A stretch of 35,483 bases of DNA from a virus (Duplodnaviria; Caudoviricetes). Shown one piece after another: positions 24,828 through 35,402 of the stretch. Under the pieces are notes generated by a model. It worked only from the letters and a program-made list of their open reading frames with translations, was not told the DNA's origin and made no database searches. A program made the position numbers and the translations under genes. The stretch is taken from the IMG/VR virus record IMGVR_UViG_3300012942_000541, positions 1 through 35,483 of that record; one strand, written 5' to 3'. Position 1 is the stretch's first letter. Every line of letters begins with the position of its first letter.

Positions 24828-25057
24828 TGCCGCAACCCTTTCAAGGATCGTCTTGCCCAATAATGTAGCGCGAGCGCCGCAAGAATACAAACCAAGGTGC
24901 CAATAACGAGAGGCAGACCCACGGACTTGCCCCCGTAAAGCGCTGAAATCATGGGAGCAAAACCACCTACTGCCAGAACGGCAACGGCGATGCTATTGAG
25001 CCAGGACGCCGTGAGCTTCACGCGCTCATTGTGGACAGTCGTTACTAGGTCGTTCAT
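24824..25057 (-). CDS. Small two-TM protein
   Basis: HNERVKLTASWLNSIAVA motif; two hydrophobic helices; coupled to the repressor stop. Confidence 0.7.
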   Translation of the reverse strand: MNDLVTTVHNERVKLTASWLNSIAVAVLAVGGFAPMISALYGGKSVGLPLVIGTLVCILAALALHYWARRSLKGLRQ

Positions 25058-25266
25058 TCGTCGGTCTTCATAAGCCTGAACGTGGCCTCAACCATCGCCC
25101 GAATAGCTTCCGGACGCGTCGGTATAGGCCGCTGCTTGGATCGCCATTCGTCCAGCTTGGAAAGAAGGTCGGGCTGGAGACGCACGCCGATCAGCGTTCC
25201 CTTACCTGTAGCAGGAGGGCCGGGCTTTTTGCGAGATTGTGTTAACACGGTTGTTGACTTCGCCAT
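25054..25266 (-). CDS. Ribbon-helix-helix (Arc/Mnt/CopG-like) repressor
   Basis: GPPATGKGTLIGVRLQPDLLSKLDEW...TRPEAIRAMVE. Confidence 0.8.
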   Translation of the reverse strand: MAKSTTVLTQSRKKPGPPATGKGTLIGVRLQPDLLSKLDEWRSKQRPIPTRPEAIRAMVEATFRLMKTDE

Positions 25267-25284
25267 AAGAACTGTGTTAGCACA
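25238..25284 (+). promoter_or_regulatory. Rightward promoter with two palindromic operators
   Basis: TGTGTTAACACG (25238-25249) and TGTGTTAGCACA (25273-25284) flank TTGACT (25254-25259); the second overlaps the -10 position. Confidence 0.75.
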
Positions 25285-25358
25285 ATTAAGTCGGGCCGGA
25301 AAGGTGTCTCACCACCGATCCAGCCCTAACCGAAACCCTGATCGCGGAGGATCAAGGA

Positions 25359-25601
25359 ATGGCTGCCCGCAGCAATACCACGGCGCGTGTCTCGCGCTCA
25401 ACTCAATCAAAACAGGATGAAGTCATCGCCGGTCTGATGACCGACGCGAAGGGCAAAGCGAGGACCCTTCGCGTACTATCGAAAGTCCTTGCCGAGACCA
25501 TGGAGGAAATCCATGGCGGCAAATGGGTGACAAACATCGATCACGAACATCGCATGATCATGATCCTTGAGCATCCCCGCAGCTACGCGCAGAGCGTCTG
25601 A
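25359..25601 (+). CDS. Hypothetical protein, first gene of the rightward operon
   Basis: LAETMEEIHGGKWVTNIDHE; RBS upstream. Confidence 0.7.
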   Translation: MAARSNTTARVSRSTQSKQDEVIAGLMTDAKGKARTLRVLSKVLAETMEEIHGGKWVTNIDHEHRMIMILEHPRSYAQSV

Positions 25602-25734
25602 ACATCTCAACAACTGAATTCCCCGCTGCCATGGGGAAGAATGCAAACGACGAGCTTCATCGGCTCCGGCGTTTGTGAAAACGAACCCCTGTGCATTCCG
25701 GGCTTGGCAGGCCGGATGCCGATGGAGACAAGAC

Positions 25735-26412
25735 ATGGCACTCGCCAAGAAAGACATTGGAATCGAATTACCGAAACTGGACATTCGGCTGATGGAAGTG
25801 ACGGTGATCGGAGATAGCCCGCTGATCGTCCACGCATGGAGCCAAAAGGCCAAGATGGAAATGCTGGGCAAGCAGATGAAACAGGCGAAGGGAGCCAAGG
25901 AGGCCAAGGACCCTCGCGCGGATTTCGAGGCTTCCTTGTATCGTCTCAGCGACGGCTACGGGTTCCCGAGCGTCGGCTTCAAGAATGCTGCGGTAACAGC
26001 GTGCACATCCGTTGCCGGCATTACCAAGATCGCCGCGCGGCAAGCATTTCATATCCTCGGAGAGGATGTGGACGTGCAGGGCGCTTTCGAAGGAACGAAG
26101 GCCCGAAACAATCTCGTTCGCATCGAAGGCGGTGAACCAGCGATGCGCGAAGACATGGTGCGCGTTGGCATGGGAACGGCCGATCTTCGTTATCGCGGCG
26201 AATTTGCCGATTGGTATGCTCGACTGCTCGTTCGCTACAACGGGAATGTCCTGTCGGAAAGCCAGATCCTGAACATCCTGAACGTCGCCGGCTTCGCTGT
26301 TGGCGTCGGGGAATGGAGGCCAGAAAAAGACGGCATGTCCGGAATGTTCCATGTCGCTACGGAAGCCGATCTTGCCAAGCTGGAGGCCGCTCCCGAGCGG
26401 ACAGCAGCATGA
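25735..26412 (+). CDS. Stand-alone Cas7/RAMP-like protein
   Basis: RAMP-ordered motifs EVTVIGDSPLIVH, YGFPSVGFKNA and Gly-rich loop GVGEWRPEKDGMSGMF; ATG 25735 after GGAG. Confidence 0.7.
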   Translation: MALAKKDIGIELPKLDIRLMEVTVIGDSPLIVHAWSQKAKMEMLGKQMKQAKGAKEAKDPRADFEASLYRLSDGYGFPSVGFKNAAVTACTSVAGITKIAARQAFHILGEDVDVQGAFEGTKARNNLVRIEGGEPAMREDMVRVGMGTADLRYRGEFADWYARLLVRYNGNVLSESQILNILNVAGFAVGVGEWRPEKDGMSGMFHVATEADLAKLEAAPERTAA

Positions 26413-26936
26413 AGATCGCCGGTTTCGAATTCGGCGAAGGCACCCGGTTTCAAGCTGGCGCCCCGACTGATGCAAAGGCCGCAAAGCGCGTCGGTGAGCA
26501 TATCGAGCTGCTTCGGAAGCAATCCAGAGGCGAACTTACGCCGGAAGATATTCTGGCCGACGCCAAGAACGACAATTCGCCGTTGCACGATTACTTCGAA
26601 TGGTCGGACACGGCAGCTGCTCACCAATTCCGGCTCCAGCAGGCGAGGGGGCTAATCCGCGCAGTTGTCGCGATTTACGTGGATGAAAATAAGGAGAAGC
26701 CGGCGATTCGGACGCGAGCCTATGTCCATGTTCCAGAAGCTACGGCCCCTCACTATCGGGAAATGACGCACGCCATGTCGCAGACGAAAACGCGGCAGCT
26801 GATCCTACAGCAAGCGTGGCGCGATCTCCGGGCGTGGCGCGTTCGCTACCAGCATCTGAAAGAGTTCGCGGACCTGATCAAGGTTATGGATGAAGTCGAA
26901 GCATCCTTGCCGTCGCCCGCGAAGTCGGTAAATTGA
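26409..26936 (+). CDS. Helical partner protein of the RAMP-like gene
   Basis: ATGA overlap at 26409-26412; LTPEDILADAKNDNSPLHDYFEWSDTAAAHQFRLQQARGLI. Confidence 0.75.
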   Translation: MKIAGFEFGEGTRFQAGAPTDAKAAKRVGEHIELLRKQSRGELTPEDILADAKNDNSPLHDYFEWSDTAAAHQFRLQQARGLIRAVVAIYVDENKEKPAIRTRAYVHVPEATAPHYREMTHAMSQTKTRQLILQQAWRDLRAWRVRYQHLKEFADLIKVMDEVEASLPSPAKSVN

Positions 26937-26992
26937 GCGTACCGGTTATGGCGAGAGTTCCGGATCCAACCTCGCGCCCGAAAGGGTTTCAC

Positions 26993-27177
26993 GGCAGGCT
27001 AGTTATGGCAACGCCCGGCAGGCATGGCATGGCGGGTCCACGCATGGCGTGCCACGGTGTGGTAAGTCTTGGCAGGCGAGGCGCGTCCAGCCCATGCAAG
27101 TTATGGCTAGGCACGTTGTGGCAGGCTAGGCAACGCCAGCCGAGGCCAGTCAACGTGAGTCATGTCGCGTTCTGGCA
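26993..27177 (+). repeat. Array of 33 (GGY-like)NN pentamers in 4 units delimited by GGCA
   Basis: GGCA at 26993, 27017, 27071, 27120, 27174 separating 4, 10, 9 and 10 pentamers; position 3 is a pyrimidine in all 33. Confidence 0.92.
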
Positions 27178-27185
27178 ACACTGAG

Positions 27186-27212
27186 AAGGCGGTTCTTCGG
27201 AGCCGCCTTTTT
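27186..27212 (+). terminator. Rho-independent terminator with C(UUCG)G loop
   Basis: AAGGCGGTTC-TTCG-GAGCCGCCTT-TTT. Confidence 0.9.
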
Positions 27213-27374
27213 CATTCCGCTCGTTCTCTCCAGAAAGACGCCGGCGGCCTTGAGGATAGTGCGTCCTCGGGGGGCAGGCCGCCGGCTGCACTCGTTGAGG
27301 CGTGTGCGGATTGATCCTTCCCGAATGAAGGCGCGGCGTCAAGCGCCGCCATCATCATCAAAATAGAGGTCGAT

Positions 27375-27593
27375 ATGCAACTGGCATCCGAATGGGGGCG
27401 CATTTTGCGCCATGCCTGGTCAGTCAGGCTCATCGCGCTCGCCATCGCCGCTTCTCTCATTGAGGGCGCTGTTTCGCTTGCCGGCGAACTTACCGGCCTG
27501 CCGTTCTGGCTTCACGCCGTCGTCGTCATCATCGCGCCGCTGGTTGGTATGGGCGCTCTGTTCGCTCGTTTTCTGGCGCAAAAGGAATTCTGA
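27375..27593 (+). CDS. Putative holin
   Basis: WGRILRHAWSVRL then two TM helices; directly before the endolysin. Confidence 0.7.
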   Translation: MQLASEWGRILRHAWSVRLIALAIAASLIEGAVSLAGELTGLPFWLHAVVVIIAPLVGMGALFARFLAQKEF

Positions 27594-29657: not shown

Positions 29658-29835
29658 GGAACTTCCAGAAATTTCAACCGTTTGGTCATCTGCGATGTGC
29701 CATTCTTCGCATCGGCATCTTTACCGCACTGCACAATGACACCATATTGTGCGAATAGCACATCCGGCATACAGTCCGATTCGAAGCTCGCGGGAGGCTT
29801 CTTTGGCTGTGATGCCAAAGATGGAGCGAATGAAA

Positions 29836-30399
29836 ATGCTGCTACCCGGATATGATGTCGCTAAGGCGGCTCAGGTGGTTGCCTATTTTGCGCTCAAATC
29901 TGGCGGAAAAATCAACGTGTTAAAATTGGCCAAGCTTCTTTATTTGGCTGATCGGGAATTTATGATCCGCTATGACGAACCCATGCTCTATGATCGGCTG
30001 GTTTCCATGCCGGACGGCCCCGTAACTTCCATAACAAACAATTTCATCGACGGTCGGCTTGAAGCGAGGATTTGGCAGACGTTCGTCTCTCCGCGCAGAG
30101 GATATGACGTATCGGCCGCAGGAGATATTGACTTTGAAGCGCTTGACGAACTGAGCCGAGCCGAGGTCGAGGTTCTTGAACATCTTTGGAGTAAGTTCGG
30201 CAGTTACGACAAATACGCCATTAGAGACTGGACGCACAATAAGGCGAACGTTCCGGAGTGGGAGGATCCCAAGGGGTCCTCATACGACATTTCATATGAA
30301 AAGATTTTCCGGCTCCTCGGGAAGCCCGATGCCAAGGCGCTAAATCAGCAGATCGATGAACGCCGGAAACTGTTTAAGGTTTTGTCAAATCACGCATGA
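29836..30399 (+). CDS. Panacea-domain (DUF4065/SocA-like) antitoxin
   Basis: LKLAKLLYLADRE, SMPDGPV, DWTH..VPEW motifs; start chosen by GGAG spacing (29812-29836 possible). Confidence 0.88.
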   Translation: MLLPGYDVAKAAQVVAYFALKSGGKINVLKLAKLLYLADREFMIRYDEPMLYDRLVSMPDGPVTSITNNFIDGRLEARIWQTFVSPRRGYDVSAAGDIDFEALDELSRAEVEVLEHLWSKFGSYDKYAIRDWTHNKANVPEWEDPKGSSYDISYEKIFRLLGKPDAKALNQQIDERRKLFKVLSNHA

Positions 30400-30785
30400 T
30401 TTACGCCCCTTGTCCGAAGGGGACGCTACTCATTCCCTCGGGCCCCCGTGATCTCAATCATCTTTTCATTATTGTGACCAACGTATGCAGCGACGGTCAG
30501 CATCTACTATTCTCGGTGTGCTCAATCCGCCCTGGCGTCGCCTATGATCCCGCATGCCAATTTGTGGGTGGCGAACATGAGTTTATCAATGGTCCGAGCT
30601 ATATTTACTATCGACGCCCAGATAGACGGCTGGCCTCAAGCATAGTGAGCTTGGTCTCAAAGGGATATTTCACCGTAAAGGCGGATTTGGCTCAATCTCA
30701 TTTCGATCGCGTATGTGAGGGAGTTGGCGCGTCTGCATTCACTACGCCAACTACGTGGAAGTATTTTCAGATGAACCGGCCGTGA
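30396..30785 (+). CDS. Putative cognate toxin (possibly PemK/MazF-like fold)
   Basis: ATGA coupled to the Panacea gene; HLFIIV..SVCS..DPAC..GEHEFI..SYIYY. Confidence 0.55.
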   Translation: MIYAPCPKGTLLIPSGPRDLNHLFIIVTNVCSDGQHLLFSVCSIRPGVAYDPACQFVGGEHEFINGPSYIYYRRPDRRLASSIVSLVSKGYFTVKADLAQSHFDRVCEGVGASAFTTPTTWKYFQMNRP

Positions 30786-31989: not shown

Positions 31990-32688
31990 TCACTGTGATG
32001 GCGGCGGGACGGGCGACGAGGCGCGCGTCTCTTCCCAGGCTTGGATGCTTACCGGCACTACCGTGCGCGCAAGAAGACGCATGGCCTCAGCATAGACCCG
32101 GATTTCATATTGCGCGTGTGAATGGAGCCGTAGATCCAGGAAATGTAGGAGGTTCCGAAGATCAACCTTCGCGAACATATGGCTGTAGGTTGCCACCGGG
32201 AGGACGGACCGAGCCAATTCGCGAGGTACACCAGCACCAAGCATGCCGCGGTATGAGACGAAGGCCTGCTCGCACGTTGACAGGATCATCGCGGACGCGT
32301 CGATGTTCACCCCACCGCCGATATCACGCGCTTGCTTATTGTCCTTTGACTGAACGCCAATCTGTCCCGGCGCAGGTACATAGAATTCCTCTGGCAATTC
32401 CCGGTATCGAGCCGATAATTCGTTGAAGCTCCATGTCCGGTGGCGATGCCATTGCCGAAATACGAAGATCGGGGCCTTGACCTCGAACTGAAACTCGACT
32501 GCCTCGAAGGGAGAGGTGTGCTTGTTGCGCCAGAGATACCGGATCAAACGTACATCGCTGCCTTCATCCTCGCCGGCACGCCATGCTGCATCGTAGGAAA
32601 CGCGGGCCGCGCGCACGACCGCCAGATCGGAGCCCATACTATCGACCAGACGCACGAATCCGTGGTCGAGAACGTCAACCCTGTCCAT
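31990..32688 (-). CDS. thyX: Flavin-dependent thymidylate synthase
   Basis: RHRx7S signature (RHRTWSFNELSARY), AARVSY, HTSPFE, HAQYEIR. Confidence 0.97.
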   Translation of the reverse strand: MDRVDVLDHGFVRLVDSMGSDLAVVRAARVSYDAAWRAGEDEGSDVRLIRYLWRNKHTSPFEAVEFQFEVKAPIFVFRQWHRHRTWSFNELSARYRELPEEFYVPAPGQIGVQSKDNKQARDIGGGVNIDASAMILSTCEQAFVSYRGMLGAGVPRELARSVLPVATYSHMFAKVDLRNLLHFLDLRLHSHAQYEIRVYAEAMRLLARTVVPVSIQAWEETRASSPVPPPSQ

Positions 32689-32899
32689 TTGTTTGCTCCA
32701 ACTTTGAGATTTCGCGGTCGAGGTACCAGCGCGCCTTTTTCAGGTCTTGGACGATGGCGTCCTTCTTCCCGGCCCGAGAGATGTATTTGACGGTGTTCCC
32801 TAAGCAGAAGCCGAGGTTCCATGCCTCAATTACCTTGATCGCTTCGTAGGGGTTATCCGCGCCCCCATAGTGAGCCGGATGGTCAACGGCTTCGTTCAT
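32675..32899 (-). CDS. DUF3310 protein (T7 gp1.7-like nucleotide kinase family)
   Basis: VDHPAHY..FCLGNTVKYISRAGKK..DLKKARWYL. Confidence 0.9.
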   Translation of the reverse strand: MNEAVDHPAHYGGADNPYEAIKVIEAWNLGFCLGNTVKYISRAGKKDAIVQDLKKARWYLDREISKLEQTNGQG

Positions 32900-32935
32900 G
32901 CTTCATCTCCTATCTGGAAGAGGGGAGGGGAACGG

Positions 32936-33160
32936 AAAAGGTGCGGGGGTCGCGCGAATTTCCACAAGGTTTTCAATGCCAGAAATGGGGCTAATCTGGC
33001 CGATAGGTGCGGGAAATAGTATAGCATATCCAGTTGATCCTGCTTGCATTTTCTTCGATCAGTTTTAACCCTAACGGATGGTTAATAGCCCAAGAAAAAG
33101 TGCTTGGCTTTCAAGCTCTTGCACCGTCATTTACCCGCACCTTTTGCGGGGTGCGGGTAT
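32936..33160. other. Putative attP with integrase arm-type repeats
   Basis: GGTGCGGG copies at 32936-32947, 33005-33017, 33129-33145 (inverted) and 33148-33160 around an AT-rich centre at the int 3' end. Confidence 0.7.
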
Positions 33161-34173
33161 AGCTTGTTCGCCGCGCGTTCCGCCAATCGCACCCGATCCG
33201 CCTTCTTCGTATAGATTTCGGCTACCTTGGTAGAGGTCCACCCGTACATCGCTGTAAGTTCGAAGGGTGTTGCGCCGTTGTTGGCCGCGAAGGTTGCGCC
33301 TGCCTTCCGTAGGCCATGGGCGCGCCCCGGAACGCCGGCCTCTTCGCATCGTGCGGCAAACCAATAACCGAAGCTGATATTCTTCCATGGCCGTCCACGC
33401 GTGTTGATGAGGAACACCAAATCGCCGGTCCTCGTCGCTTCGATCGACTTCGCCAGCGGCGGCAGGACTGGGATGGTGATCTCCGCGCCAGTCTTCTCCG
33501 TTCGAATACTGATGACGCCATTTTTGACGTGCTGCCTGCCGAGCGTGATCGCGTCAGATCTTCGGAGGCCAGTATAGAGCATGATATCGAGTGCGAGCCG
33601 GGCTTGTGTTCCGATTGCGTGCCGCTCCTGGTATTTGGCGACTTCTTCTACCGTCCACGTGTGATAGCCGTCCGTCTTTGATGGGCTAACCTTGATGTTC
33701 TCGGCGGGATTGACGCCTATCCAGCCGCTGTCTTTGGCAAACCGCAGCAGGGCGCGCATGGTGCGGACGTATTCGAGCGCCATGGTGGGCGTGCGTTCCC
33801 GGCGAACCATGGCAGCGCGAATATCGGCTTCATCTATTGCCGCGAAATTTAGATCACTCCCGTTCTCGCAGGCTTTTTCCAGCGCAAGACGTTGATTGCG
33901 TTTCGTGTTGGGGCGAAGCTTGTCGAAACGGCCACTCTCGTAATACCGGTCTACCAGCCACCGGAGCGTCGATCGCGGCGCCTCAGTCCGCTTCCCTACC
34001 TGCGTGCCAGCCAGCGCCGCATTATAGGCTGCGTTGAACTCTTTCGATCCAAAGACGCCGGGGAGCCTGACACGCTTCTCTTTACCACGCCGGAAATACC
34101 ATACGACCTTTCCGTGACGGGTCGTCTCTTTCTGAATAAACGGCTTCCGAGGGCGAGGCATAGAAGGCATCAC
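33127..34173 (-). CDS. int: Tyrosine recombinase / phage integrase
   Basis: TGLRRSD (R), EKTG (K), HGLRK, GW, EIYT (Y); N-terminal RHGKVVWYFRR arm-binding domain. Confidence 0.96.
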   Translation of the reverse strand: MMPSMPRPRKPFIQKETTRHGKVVWYFRRGKEKRVRLPGVFGSKEFNAAYNAALAGTQVGKRTEAPRSTLRWLVDRYYESGRFDKLRPNTKRNQRLALEKACENGSDLNFAAIDEADIRAAMVRRERTPTMALEYVRTMRALLRFAKDSGWIGVNPAENIKVSPSKTDGYHTWTVEEVAKYQERHAIGTQARLALDIMLYTGLRRSDAITLGRQHVKNGVISIRTEKTGAEITIPVLPPLAKSIEATRTGDLVFLINTRGRPWKNISFGYWFAARCEEAGVPGRAHGLRKAGATFAANNGATPFELTAMYGWTSTKVAEIYTKKADRVRLAERAANKLYPHPAKGAGK

Positions 34174-34352
34174 ATGAAGCCCTTACCCTTCTCGTCAATC
34201 GACTTTTCTTCCTGTGCAAGACTTCCGGGGACATTGGGGACAAGCTCAATCACTGTCTTGCCAATCCGTATACGCGTGATGCAGCCGGCCTTTTTCGCTC
34301 CCTCGCATAGAGCTTTCACCTGGCGCTGCGTAAGATCGAGCCTAGCCGCCAT
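34170..34352 (-). CDS. Small xis-like gene upstream of the integrase
   Basis: MAARLDLTQRQVKALCEGAKKAG..IRIGKTVIELVP; GGGAG RBS; coupled to int; function inferred from position. Confidence 0.55.
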   Translation of the reverse strand: MAARLDLTQRQVKALCEGAKKAGCITRIRIGKTVIELVPNVPGSLAQEEKSIDEKGKGFM

Positions 34353-34854
34353 AAAAGGCTCCCTCATGTCGAGCGCGCTCAGCCTCATAGGCTGCCTTTG
34401 CGGCGTCAATTGTAGGGAATGAACCGATGTAGATGGCCTTTCCAAAGACTTGAATCTTGGACTTGTAAGGGTTTTTTCGGCTTTTCTCGTTTAGATATAC
34501 CCCGCGCGGCAGAACGTTTTTCCGTGGTTGCTCAGCGTTAGTCATATTCTGTTGGTGTGTTGCTATTCTGAGATTAGACCAACGGTTATCCGTCTTCTTT
34601 CGATTTATATGATCGATGAACATTCCAACGGGGATATCGTGTCCTGTCATTAACGCATACGCCACCCGATGGGCTAAAATAGTGCGCCTTCTGCCCTCTT
34701 CGGTGAGGTCAACCGATAGATACCCTCGCGCATCAAGTCGCCCAACTGGCCGAAGAACGCCGGACGCATTGCCATATAATTGGCCGCTAGTCGGCTCATA
34801 CGCGTATTTGGTACGAAGGGCCTCGACGGGGAGGGGTAGCGCGACTTTTGGCAT
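34342..34854 (-). CDS. HNH endonuclease with C-terminal AP2-like domain
   Basis: LAHRVAY..IDHINRKKTDNRWSNLR..NMTN; RGVY..YIGSFPTIDAAKAAY; GGAG RBS before ATG 34854. Confidence 0.9.
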   Translation of the reverse strand: MPKVALPLPVEALRTKYAYEPTSGQLYGNASGVLRPVGRLDARGYLSVDLTEEGRRRTILAHRVAYALMTGHDIPVGMFIDHINRKKTDNRWSNLRIATHQQNMTNAEQPRKNVLPRGVYLNEKSRKNPYKSKIQVFGKAIYIGSFPTIDAAKAAYEAERARHEGAFYGG

Positions 34855-34926
34855 ATTGTTGGTCTCCAATCTTGTTGGAAAACCGTACCATATTTCTGAA
34901 GCGTACAACACAAAAATTTGTACGTT

Positions 34927-35034
34927 TCGGATAACCTTGTCGCCCATCTTGACTTCCACAATGGCATGTTCCGCTTCCGCGGCTCGCAGAAGCGTTTGAG
35001 CCTCCCGCTTGGTGAGGATCAGCGGCTTGCTCAC
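34927..35034 (-). pseudogene. Truncated xis-like paralogue reading in frame into the HNH gene
   Basis: GTG 35034 coupled to the upstream stop; LILTKREAQTLLRAAEAEHAIVEVKMGDKVIR aligns by eye with 34170-34352. Confidence 0.5.
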
Positions 35035-35402
35035 TTCTTTTCCTCCAGAGCGCGGCGATACGGAGCGATGGCGTCCTTTGCCAAGGTGCGTGGGTCGTTG
35101 TGGCCATCTGCGATCTTCTCCAGAACGGCGAAGAATCGCGATCCAGCCCATTCAAGACGTTGTTTCTGGTACCGGGCGTCCTCACGCTCCCGAGTCTCGC
35201 GCGTACGCTTCGCGACGACTTCCGGATCGTGCTGCTTGCAATAGGCACCGTCAGGGCCATGGCCGCGCTTTCGGGCGCATTGGCCCCAATGAGGCCAATT
35301 TCCAATATAGCGGGCCACTTCCTCGCAGCATCGCGTATAATCGGGCGGCCGCTTGGCAAGGTTGTCGCCATAGTGCTGCTTATAGCGGCTACTCCCCTGC
35401 AT
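35031..35402 (-). CDS. Hypothetical protein with a Cys3-His zinc-finger-like motif
   Basis: AGGAGG RBS; RCCEEV..QCARKRGHGPDGAYCKQH. Confidence 0.7.
   Translation of the reverse strand: MQGSSRYKQHYGDNLAKRPPDYTRCCEEVARYIGNWPHWGQCARKRGHGPDGAYCKQHDPEVVAKRTRETREREDARYQKQRLEWAGSRFFAVLEKIADGHNDPRTLAKDAIAPYRRALEEKK

What the first reader, a model, noticed from the sequence alone, without database searches (positions are those of the whole stretch)
25735..27212. Candidate non-CRISPR RNA-guided system: Cas7/RAMP-like gene, coupled partner and pentamer-array RNA
Seen: a 225-aa gene and a 175-aa gene joined by an ATGA overlap, followed directly by a hairpin leader, a strictly phased 185-nt pentamer array and a strong terminator. 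There is no cas1/cas2, recognisable nuclease or repeat-spacer array in the window. Known: Cas7-family RAMPs polymerise on guide RNA with a fixed nucleotide step per subunit. Inference: each subunit grips the constant GGY triplet and displays the variable NN, so each array unit is a guide against competing phages or other mobile elements, perhaps acting by blocking transcription. From memory this resembles recently reported phage RAMP plus GGY/NN-repeat (VIPR-type) systems; that match is unverified.
Basis: partly seen in the sequence, partly recalled or inferred. Interest (0 to 1): 0.96.

Follow-up and report, generated by a model that had tools for sequence, protein, structure and literature searches.

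The report
Phage VIPR system with pseudoknot-led guides
This phage carries a recently described CRISPR-like system (VIPR) whose repeat array, read two bases in every three, spells stretches of a prophage antirepressor gene and of another phage group's capsid gene, which it likely silences, and the array opens with a conserved, predicted RNA pseudoknot.

Summary
Real, and a member of a known kind. The 225-aa protein is a Vipr: it matches the solved SUSP1 Vipr (E 2e-5), keeps its RNA-binding residues and folds like Cas7/Csm3. The 175-aa partner is a coupled Vap-like protein. The array is not strictly phased. It is four blocks (4, 10, 9, 11 units), each shifted by one base at GGCA|GGC, which matches the published 'staggered' layout; only 16 of 34 triplets are exact GGY. 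Under the 1-nt skip rule, block 2 matches 20/20 the start of a prophage antirepressor whose identical protein is named from Aquamicrobium (the predicted host family). Block 4 matches 20/20 a conserved capsid-gene site that another phage's guide also hits. Relatives' guides support the rule: 12 of 147 near-perfect versus 0 of 147 for other skips. The 'hairpin leader' is a covarying 5' pseudoknot (held-out pairs 42/48 vs 31.8 expected) that also heads orphan guides aimed at this vipr gene. I found it in neither Rfam nor the VIPR paper text read. No expression data were available. This scan has reported VIPR systems before on other DNA, including a rhizobial prophage.

The parts
25735..26412 (+). 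vipr gene, 225 aa RAMP/Cas7-like guide-binding protein
   Evidence: phmmer to PDB 36pp_D SUSP1 Vipr E 2e-5; hhalign 96%, E 4.4e-9; model pLDDT 85 matches Csm3/Cmr4, Foldseek E 7.5e-6 and Z 10.0; H33, R154, E193, W194, R195 align with SUSP1 H17, R138, D177, W178, R179
26409..26936 (+). vap-like accessory gene, 175 aa, translationally coupled by ATGA; N-terminal part weakly winged-helix-like
   Evidence: found directly behind vipr in most related loci seen; large family, 10,846 representatives at E<=0.001; model pLDDT 95.6 gives only weak winged-helix matches, Z about 5; no BLASTP similarity to SUSP1 Vap1
26942..26986 (+). 5' leader E1: predicted H-type pseudoknot (26942-26945 with 26960-26963; 26951-26959 with 26968-26975, A26956 bulged) plus hairpin 26977-26986
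   Evidence: 88.8% of cells paired, 8 pairs with two-sided change, 0 of 500 shuffles reaching it; held-out pseudoknot arm 42 of 48 vs 31.8 expected, 0 of 10000; no Rfam match at gathering level
26993..27016 (+). GGCA boundary and block 1 (4 units; too short to specify a unique target)
27017..27070 (+). GGCA boundary and block 2 (10 units); matches the start of a P22_AR_N antirepressor gene in a provirus
   Evidence: 20/20 in L057/G004; 19/20 in L076 and L091
27071..27119 (+). GGCA boundary and block 3 (9 units); target unresolved, weak lead to a DnaB N-terminal motif
27120..27178 (+). GGCA boundary and block 4 (11 units, first 10 matching); matches a conserved site in a major head protein gene of another phage group
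   Evidence: 20/20 in 107 of 120 matches; same site hit 18/18 by a guide of L031
27185..27213 (+). intrinsic-terminator-like hairpin with U tail closing the array
   Evidence: -18.7 kcal/mol, z -4.75; near-identical hairpin ends the orphan unit in L255

Best explanation
This is a phage VIPR cassette: a Vipr RAMP protein, a coupled accessory protein and a staggered GGY/NN array whose phase blocks spell, two bases in three, sites in a prophage antirepressor gene and in another phage group's capsid gene, which the complex likely binds and silences. Shown here: the Vipr homology and fold, the block structure, the matches under the 1-nt skip rule and the covarying 5' leader. Inferred from the SUSP1 work: one Vipr subunit coats each pentamer, hides the triplet, shows the NN, forms a gapped R-loop on double-stranded DNA and blocks transcription without cutting. 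Inferred here: each block between GGCA|GGC slips is one guide; silencing the antirepressor keeps a resident rival prophage from inducing, and silencing the capsid gene cripples a co-infecting phage; the pseudoknot most likely caps the 5' end of the array RNA or nucleates loading, in place of the 3' pseudoknot tail of SUSP1.
For: Vipr. Array above chance and staggered: (32 of 44 related loci show a -1 stagger, 40 of 44 a block of 6 or more units; not dereplicated). Block 2: 20/20 over the ATG of a P22_AR_N/Ant gene in provirus G004, sense strand, skip on the wobble base. That protein is identical to one named from Aquamicrobium defluvii; close Vipr/Vap homologues come from Mesorhizobium and Phyllobacterium, the same family by my own knowledge. 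Block 4: 20/20 in 107 of 120 matches, major head protein phrog_371. An independent guide from L031 hits the same site shifted by one codon, 18/18, and one carrier of the target, G005, has its own vipr at 79% identity. Skip rule across relatives: best hit with at most 1 mismatch for 12 of 147 guides at skip 1, 0 of 147 at skip 0 and at skip 2, and 0, 2, 0 in three NN-order shuffles. No self target above 14/20. Leader covariation.
Against: Nothing was assayed for this locus. Taken alone, each window match has a real chance rate: about 0.11 (block 2) and 0.055 (block 4) expected chance extensions to 20/20. Two unrelated 19/20 matches also exist for block 2 (L065, L074). The block 4 scan covered only 32 of 64 parts of the collection. 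In 401 genomes of the order of G001, block 2 gave only three 2-mismatch hits against one control hit, and block 3 one 1-mismatch hit against one control hit. Block 3 has no convincing target and block 1 has four units. Only 16 of 34 triplets are exact GGY. The 147-guide test database was enriched for vipr and capsid loci (the controls shared it). The host of the capsid-target phages is unknown; the best named match is an uncultured spring virus at 74%.
Confidence: 0.85

Rival explanations
1. Same system, but the array is not cut into separate guides: one long RNA carries several Vipr filaments, and each 1-nt slip simply resets the register between them.
For: No Cas6-like or ribozyme sequence sits at the GGCA|GGC slips. 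The staggered layout was not among those confirmed by small-RNA sequencing in the discovery preprint. The boundary unit's AG does not match the targets, which fits either model.
Against: The preprint's fig. S18 legend describes staggered arrays as processed vrRNAs; the invariant GGCA|GGC would suit a processing site. Not tested here.
Confidence: 0.3
2. The leader is an uncatalogued self-cleaving ribozyme that frees guides from the vap mRNA, playing the role hammerheads play in type I and V arrays.
For: It sits right after the vap stop codon and also inside arrays in L010, L016 and L044; it has an invariant core; hammerhead-interspersed VIPR arrays are published.
Against: It carries no hammerhead core and has no Rfam ribozyme match. 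In orphan L255 it starts about 7 nt after a promoter-like -10 box seen by eye (below the scanner's threshold), where release from an upstream RNA is not needed.
Confidence: 0.17
3. The accessory protein is a nuclease or other enzyme, so the complex destroys targets or processes the array rather than only blocking transcription.
For: Invariant or near-invariant H60, F63, W65, R75, R129, Y147 and E152; types III-V carry enzymatic Vaps.
Against: The fold matches are weak and to winged-helix DNA binders such as MecI (Z 5.4); phage-borne VIPRs mostly repress.
Confidence: 0.1
4. The cassette is a decaying remnant or the matches are chance, and it guides nothing.
For: Degenerate triplets, a 4-unit first block and no target for block 3.
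Against: Both genes are intact with key residues kept; degeneracy is clade-wide (1032 of 1536 triplets exact GGY); two independent guides converge on one capsid site; orphan guides match this vipr gene at 21/22 and 19/20.
Confidence: 0.06

Closest known systems
VIPR systems, reference type II of Escherichia phage SUSP1 (bioRxiv 10.64898/2026.04.26.720920 and .720927; PDB 36PP)
   Same: Homologous Vipr with conserved GGY-binding residues; two-gene vipr + accessory cassette in a phage; GGY/NN pentamers, 9-11 units per full guide; 1-nt skip on the wobble base; targets in competing phages and prophage regulators; no self target.
   Different: About 24% identity to SUSP1 Vipr; the accessory protein shows no BLASTP similarity to SUSP1 Vap1; guides are staggered in one tract rather than separate tailed genes; the pseudoknot is 5' of the repeats rather than a 3' tail; more degenerate triplets; D177 is replaced by E.
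Staggered vrRNA arrays (same preprint, fig. S18 legend)
   Same: Successive guides overlap by 1 nt, the end of one marking the start of the next.
   Different: The text read names no leader, targets or processing mechanism for them; the figure and type assignment (I-VII) could not be seen.
Orphan (solo) vrRNAs of VIPR-null phages (bioRxiv 10.64898/2026.10.15.759431)
   Same: Leader-headed orphan units in related phages match vipr genes, including this one, and one relative's guide matches the leader itself.
   Different: Published for Enterobacteriaceae phages; here a clade whose named homologues are Rhizobiales.
Class 1 CRISPR Cas7/Csm3/Cmr4 RAMPs
   Same: RRM/RAMP fold with thumb and G-loop.
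   Different: No cas1, no repeat-spacer array, and gapped rather than near-contiguous pairing.

Membership tests
VIPR | Vipr protein: minimal RAMP homologous to known Viprs | tested here: met
   phmmer E 2e-5 to SUSP1 Vipr in the PDB; hhalign 96%; RAMP fold
VIPR | GGY-contact residues (SUSP1 H17, R138, D177, W178, R179) | tested here: met
   H33, R154, E193, W194, R195; H33, R154, E193 and R195 invariant in 60 homologues, W194 at 90% or more; D to E is conservative
VIPR | Minimal vipr + vap locus in a phage, without cas1 or CRISPR array | tested here: met
   virus record with terminase, portal and integrase
VIPR | Adjacent tandem GGY/NN pentamers, 9-16 units per guide | tested here: met
   blocks of 10, 9 and 11 units plus one of 4; degenerate triplets; 40 of 44 related loci carry a block
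VIPR | NN code with a 1-nt skip matching natural targets in other mobile elements | tested here: met
   20/20 for blocks 2 and 4; 12 of 147 versus 0 of 147 and 0 of 147 for skips 0 and 2
VIPR | Guide RNA expressed and bound by Vipr | not testable with these tools
   needs RNA-seq and pull-down
VIPR | Guide-dependent DNA binding and transcriptional repression | not testable with these tools
   needs an assay
VIPR type II (SUSP1 clade) | Separate vrRNAs, each with a conserved 3' tail, and Vap1 | tested here: not met
   staggered blocks without tails between them; no BLASTP similarity to SUSP1 Vap1 (a pairwise test only)
VIPR types I, III-VII | Placement in the published Vipr tree and vap class | not testable with these tools
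   type figures and data S4 are not held
Known self-cleaving ribozymes and other Rfam families | Leader matches a curated covariance model | tested here: inconclusive
   no match near a gathering score in the window region or four other loci; an uncatalogued class is not excluded
Class 1 CRISPR-Cas | cas1 and a repeat-spacer array | tested here: not met
   the record is 87% complete

The most novel reading that the evidence does not exclude
The 5' pseudoknot is a new functional RNA class dedicated to staggered VIPR arrays: either a self-cleaving ribozyme of uncatalogued fold or a loading element that, with the accessory protein, cuts or registers the array at GGCA|GGC. It travels as a portable leader-guides-terminator unit that VIPR-lacking rhizobial phages use to turn a rival's Vipr against its own gene. 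That would explain how tail-less staggered guides are matured, which the texts read leave open.
Probability: 0.22. Interest if true: 0.8.

Novelty: new member of a known kind. Interest (0 to 1): 0.5.

Why it matters
VIPR is a very recent, compact RNA-guided DNA-recognition system. Its staggered-array form has, in the text read, no experimental confirmation, targets or maturation mechanism. This locus gives sequence evidence that each phase block is a guide. It extends the 1-nt skip rule and the orphan-guide warfare to a distant clade whose named homologues are Rhizobiales, and it names two concrete targets: an antirepressor start and a capsid motif. It also defines a covarying 5' pseudoknot that can be tested directly for self-cleavage, RNA protection or loading. 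A natural multiplex array of four guides in 180 nt would be useful for engineering if processing is understood.

Tried and rejected
Strict 5-nt phasing: rejected; TRF misses the array. Pfam and PADLOC give no family for either protein; PHROGs gives only unknown-function families. Vap fold search: no Foldseek match at E<=0.001 and best Z 6.3 to a designed helical protein, so no family was assigned. Rfam: only chance-level rows. Comparing the leader by eye with hammerhead, twister, pistol and HDV-like layouts (recalled, from no call) gave no fit. Self-targeting: best 14/20 at every skip. Host-order genome scans: chance level. Block 3: no 18/18 match among 16 and 17 viral loci from two 8-NN scans; 15 exact metagenome matches were heterogeneous; five loci (L102, L104, L271, L280 at 16/18 and L297 at 18/18) fall on one DnaB N-terminal motif, kept only as a lead because they are low-GC and DnaB is abundant. 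The idea that degenerate triplets encode the skipped target base was checked by eye for blocks 2 and 4 and did not hold; triplet versus next NN showed no simple rule. No sigma-70-type promoter was called at 25000-27500. Sequencing runs: no RNA holder was listed. The guide parser missed window block 4 and was replaced. No complex prediction was run.

Full report
CONTEXT. The window is a whole virus record (G000, linear, 87% complete) with terminase, portal, head, lysozyme, ThyX and integrase genes, so a temperate phage. The cassette lies between the virion genes and the lysis genes. The closest named homologues of both cassette proteins come from Mesorhizobium, Phyllobacterium, Sinorhizobium and relatives.

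OBSERVATION. The two genes, the ATGA overlap and the terminator hairpin are as described. The array is real but not strictly phased: no single phase holds more than 8 GGY in 56 steps. It parses into four blocks starting at 26997, 27021, 27075 and 27124, each shifted by one base at GGCA|GGC, with 4, 10, 9 and 11 guide units. A score that allows such slips gives 43, against a shuffled mean of 5.0 and maximum of 14 (0 of 2000) and 9 elsewhere in the window. Sixteen of 34 guide triplets are exact GGY and all end in a pyrimidine; in related loci 1032 of 1536 are GGY. There is no Cas1 and no repeat-spacer array. An HNH nuclease does exist 7 kb away.

THE PROTEINS. The 225-aa protein hits the solved SUSP1 Vipr (36pp_D, E 2e-5), the SUSP1 gene by tblastn (23.5%, E 2e-4) and by profile (96%). 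Its model (pLDDT 85) matches type III Csm/Cmr RAMPs (Foldseek E 7.5e-6; Z 10.0, rmsd 4.0 over 148 residues). The SUSP1 residues that grip the GGY (H17, R138, D177, W178, R179) align with H33, R154, E193, W194 and R195. The 175-aa partner belongs to a large family (10,846 representatives) and folds confidently (pLDDT 95.6). It gives only weak winged-helix-type matches (MecI Z 5.4) and shows no pairwise similarity to SUSP1 Vap1. I read it as a likely DNA-binding Vap, unproven.

RELATED LOCI. Of 44 loci fetched (not dereplicated, some duplicates), 40 carry a block of 6 or more units and 32 show an adjacent -1 stagger. The discovery preprint describes such staggered arrays, but they were not among the architectures it confirmed by sequencing.

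TARGETS. I searched 8-NN patterns under the published 1-nt skip rule and scored the NN left out of the pattern. Block 2 gave 52 matches in 51 loci. One was 20/20, across the start codon of a P22_AR_N antirepressor in provirus L057/G004; three were 19/20 in the same gene family (L076, and L091 twice); two were unrelated 19/20 matches. The target protein is identical to one named from Aquamicrobium defluvii, in the same family as Mesorhizobium and Phyllobacterium by my own knowledge. Block 4 gave 120 matches from half the collection. Of these, 107 were 20/20, all at one motif of a major head protein (phrog_371; nearest cultured relatives are HTVC023P-like phages at about 40%). Chance alone would give about 0.11 and 0.055 such extensions, so independent support matters. 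A guide from another phage (L031) hits the same capsid site one codon upstream, 18/18, and one carrier of the site (G005) has its own vipr at 79%. Across 147 distinct guides of 8 or more units from relatives, searched against 1.67 Mb of fetched DNA, 12 had a best hit with at most one mismatch at skip 1. None did at skip 0 or skip 2, and 0, 2 and 0 did in three shuffles; that database is enriched for vipr and capsid loci. In the perfect block 2 hit the boundary unit's AG did not match, so the guide ends at the slip. Block 3 has no convincing target and block 1 is too short. Scans of 401 genomes of the host order were at chance level. There is no self target above 14/20.

THE LEADER. On 18 aligned copies, an H-type pseudoknot plus hairpin has 88.8% of cells paired and 8 pairs with two-sided changes (0 of 500 shuffles); the core helix is 100% paired. 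The pseudoknot arm, which the search pattern did not constrain, pairs at 42 of 48 positions in 12 held-out copies against 31.8 expected (0 of 10000). A motif scan found 28 viral loci: 25 are followed by a pentamer array (one is cut by a contig end) and 18 have vipr or vap within 1.5 kb. Five records without nearby vipr gave no vipr match record-wide, though only one of them is complete. Guides behind such orphan leaders match vipr genes, including this window's at 26149 (21/22 from L253, 19/20 from L255), and a guide of L044 matches the leader itself 20/20. This parallels the orphan vrRNAs of Lopez et al.. In L255 the leader begins about 7 nt after a promoter-like box seen by eye (not called), which favours a 5' cap or loading role over self-cleavage. 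Rfam gives no match.

MECHANISM. Shown: homology, fold, block structure, code-consistent targets, leader covariation. From the SUSP1 papers: one protomer per pentamer, gapped R-loop, repression. Inferred: silencing the antirepressor keeps a resident prophage dormant, silencing the capsid gene hampers a co-infecting phage, and the leader protects or loads the array RNA. Confidence 0.85 for the system and its code; how the blocks are separated remains open.

LITERATURE SEEN. 10.64898/2026.04.26.720920: whole text and a term search of its supplement PDF; figures, tables and data files were not visible, so the type assignment and any drawing of this leader may lie there. 10.64898/2026.04.26.720927: part 1 of 6 and passages. 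10.64898/2026.10.15.759431: part 1 of 8, passages and section 8. 10.64898/2026.10.21.760802: passages only. Searches returned no paper describing a 5' pseudoknot leader on VIPR arrays; subscription journals are not covered. Earlier notes of this scan report VIPR in at least 37 genomes, including a rhizobial prophage whose leader is targeted and a different 5' cap fold.

VERDICT. A genuine VIPR system, a new member of a known kind, with useful additions: decoded targets for a staggered array and a covariation-supported 5' pseudoknot. Interest 0.5.

Noticed in passing
L006, L008, L010, L014-L020, L024, L026, L033, L038, directly after the vap stop: A second leader type (E2): a hairpin whose loop is complementary to the first GGGCA of the array, so possibly another pseudoknot; 14 of 45 loci. 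L010 and L016 carry both leader types in one array.
   Followed up: no
L253, L255, L258, L247, L263: Orphan leader-guide units in records with no vipr match; their first guides match vipr genes at 16/16 to 21/22.
   Followed up: partly
L016:4225, L022:4203 and L044:4216: Guides of VIPR-positive phages match other phages' vap genes (17/18, 16/18) or the E1 leader (20/20), suggesting VIPR-versus-VIPR conflict.
   Followed up: partly
L001:4303 against L016:300; L006:4409 against L025:663: Two guides match similar motifs (18/18 and 16/18) in genes about 2.5 kb upstream of vipr in related phages; the gene was not identified.
   Followed up: no
L243:1494-1555: A copy of the leader with no pentamer array behind it.
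   Followed up: no
window 25054-25601: Divergent pair upstream of vipr: a 70-aa repressor-like gene (phrog_4738, minus strand) and an 80-aa gene (plus strand) that may share a transcript with the cassette.
   Followed up: no
window 29749-30785: Panacea/SocA-like antitoxin gene (PF13274) overlapping a 129-aa gene, a likely toxin-antitoxin pair.
   Followed up: no
window 31990-35151: ThyX, tyrosine integrase and HNH endonuclease genes on the minus strand.
   Followed up: no
window 27124-27178: Block 4 is predicted to fold more stably than shuffles (z -3.35), which could hinder Vipr loading unless it is co-transcriptional.
   Followed up: no
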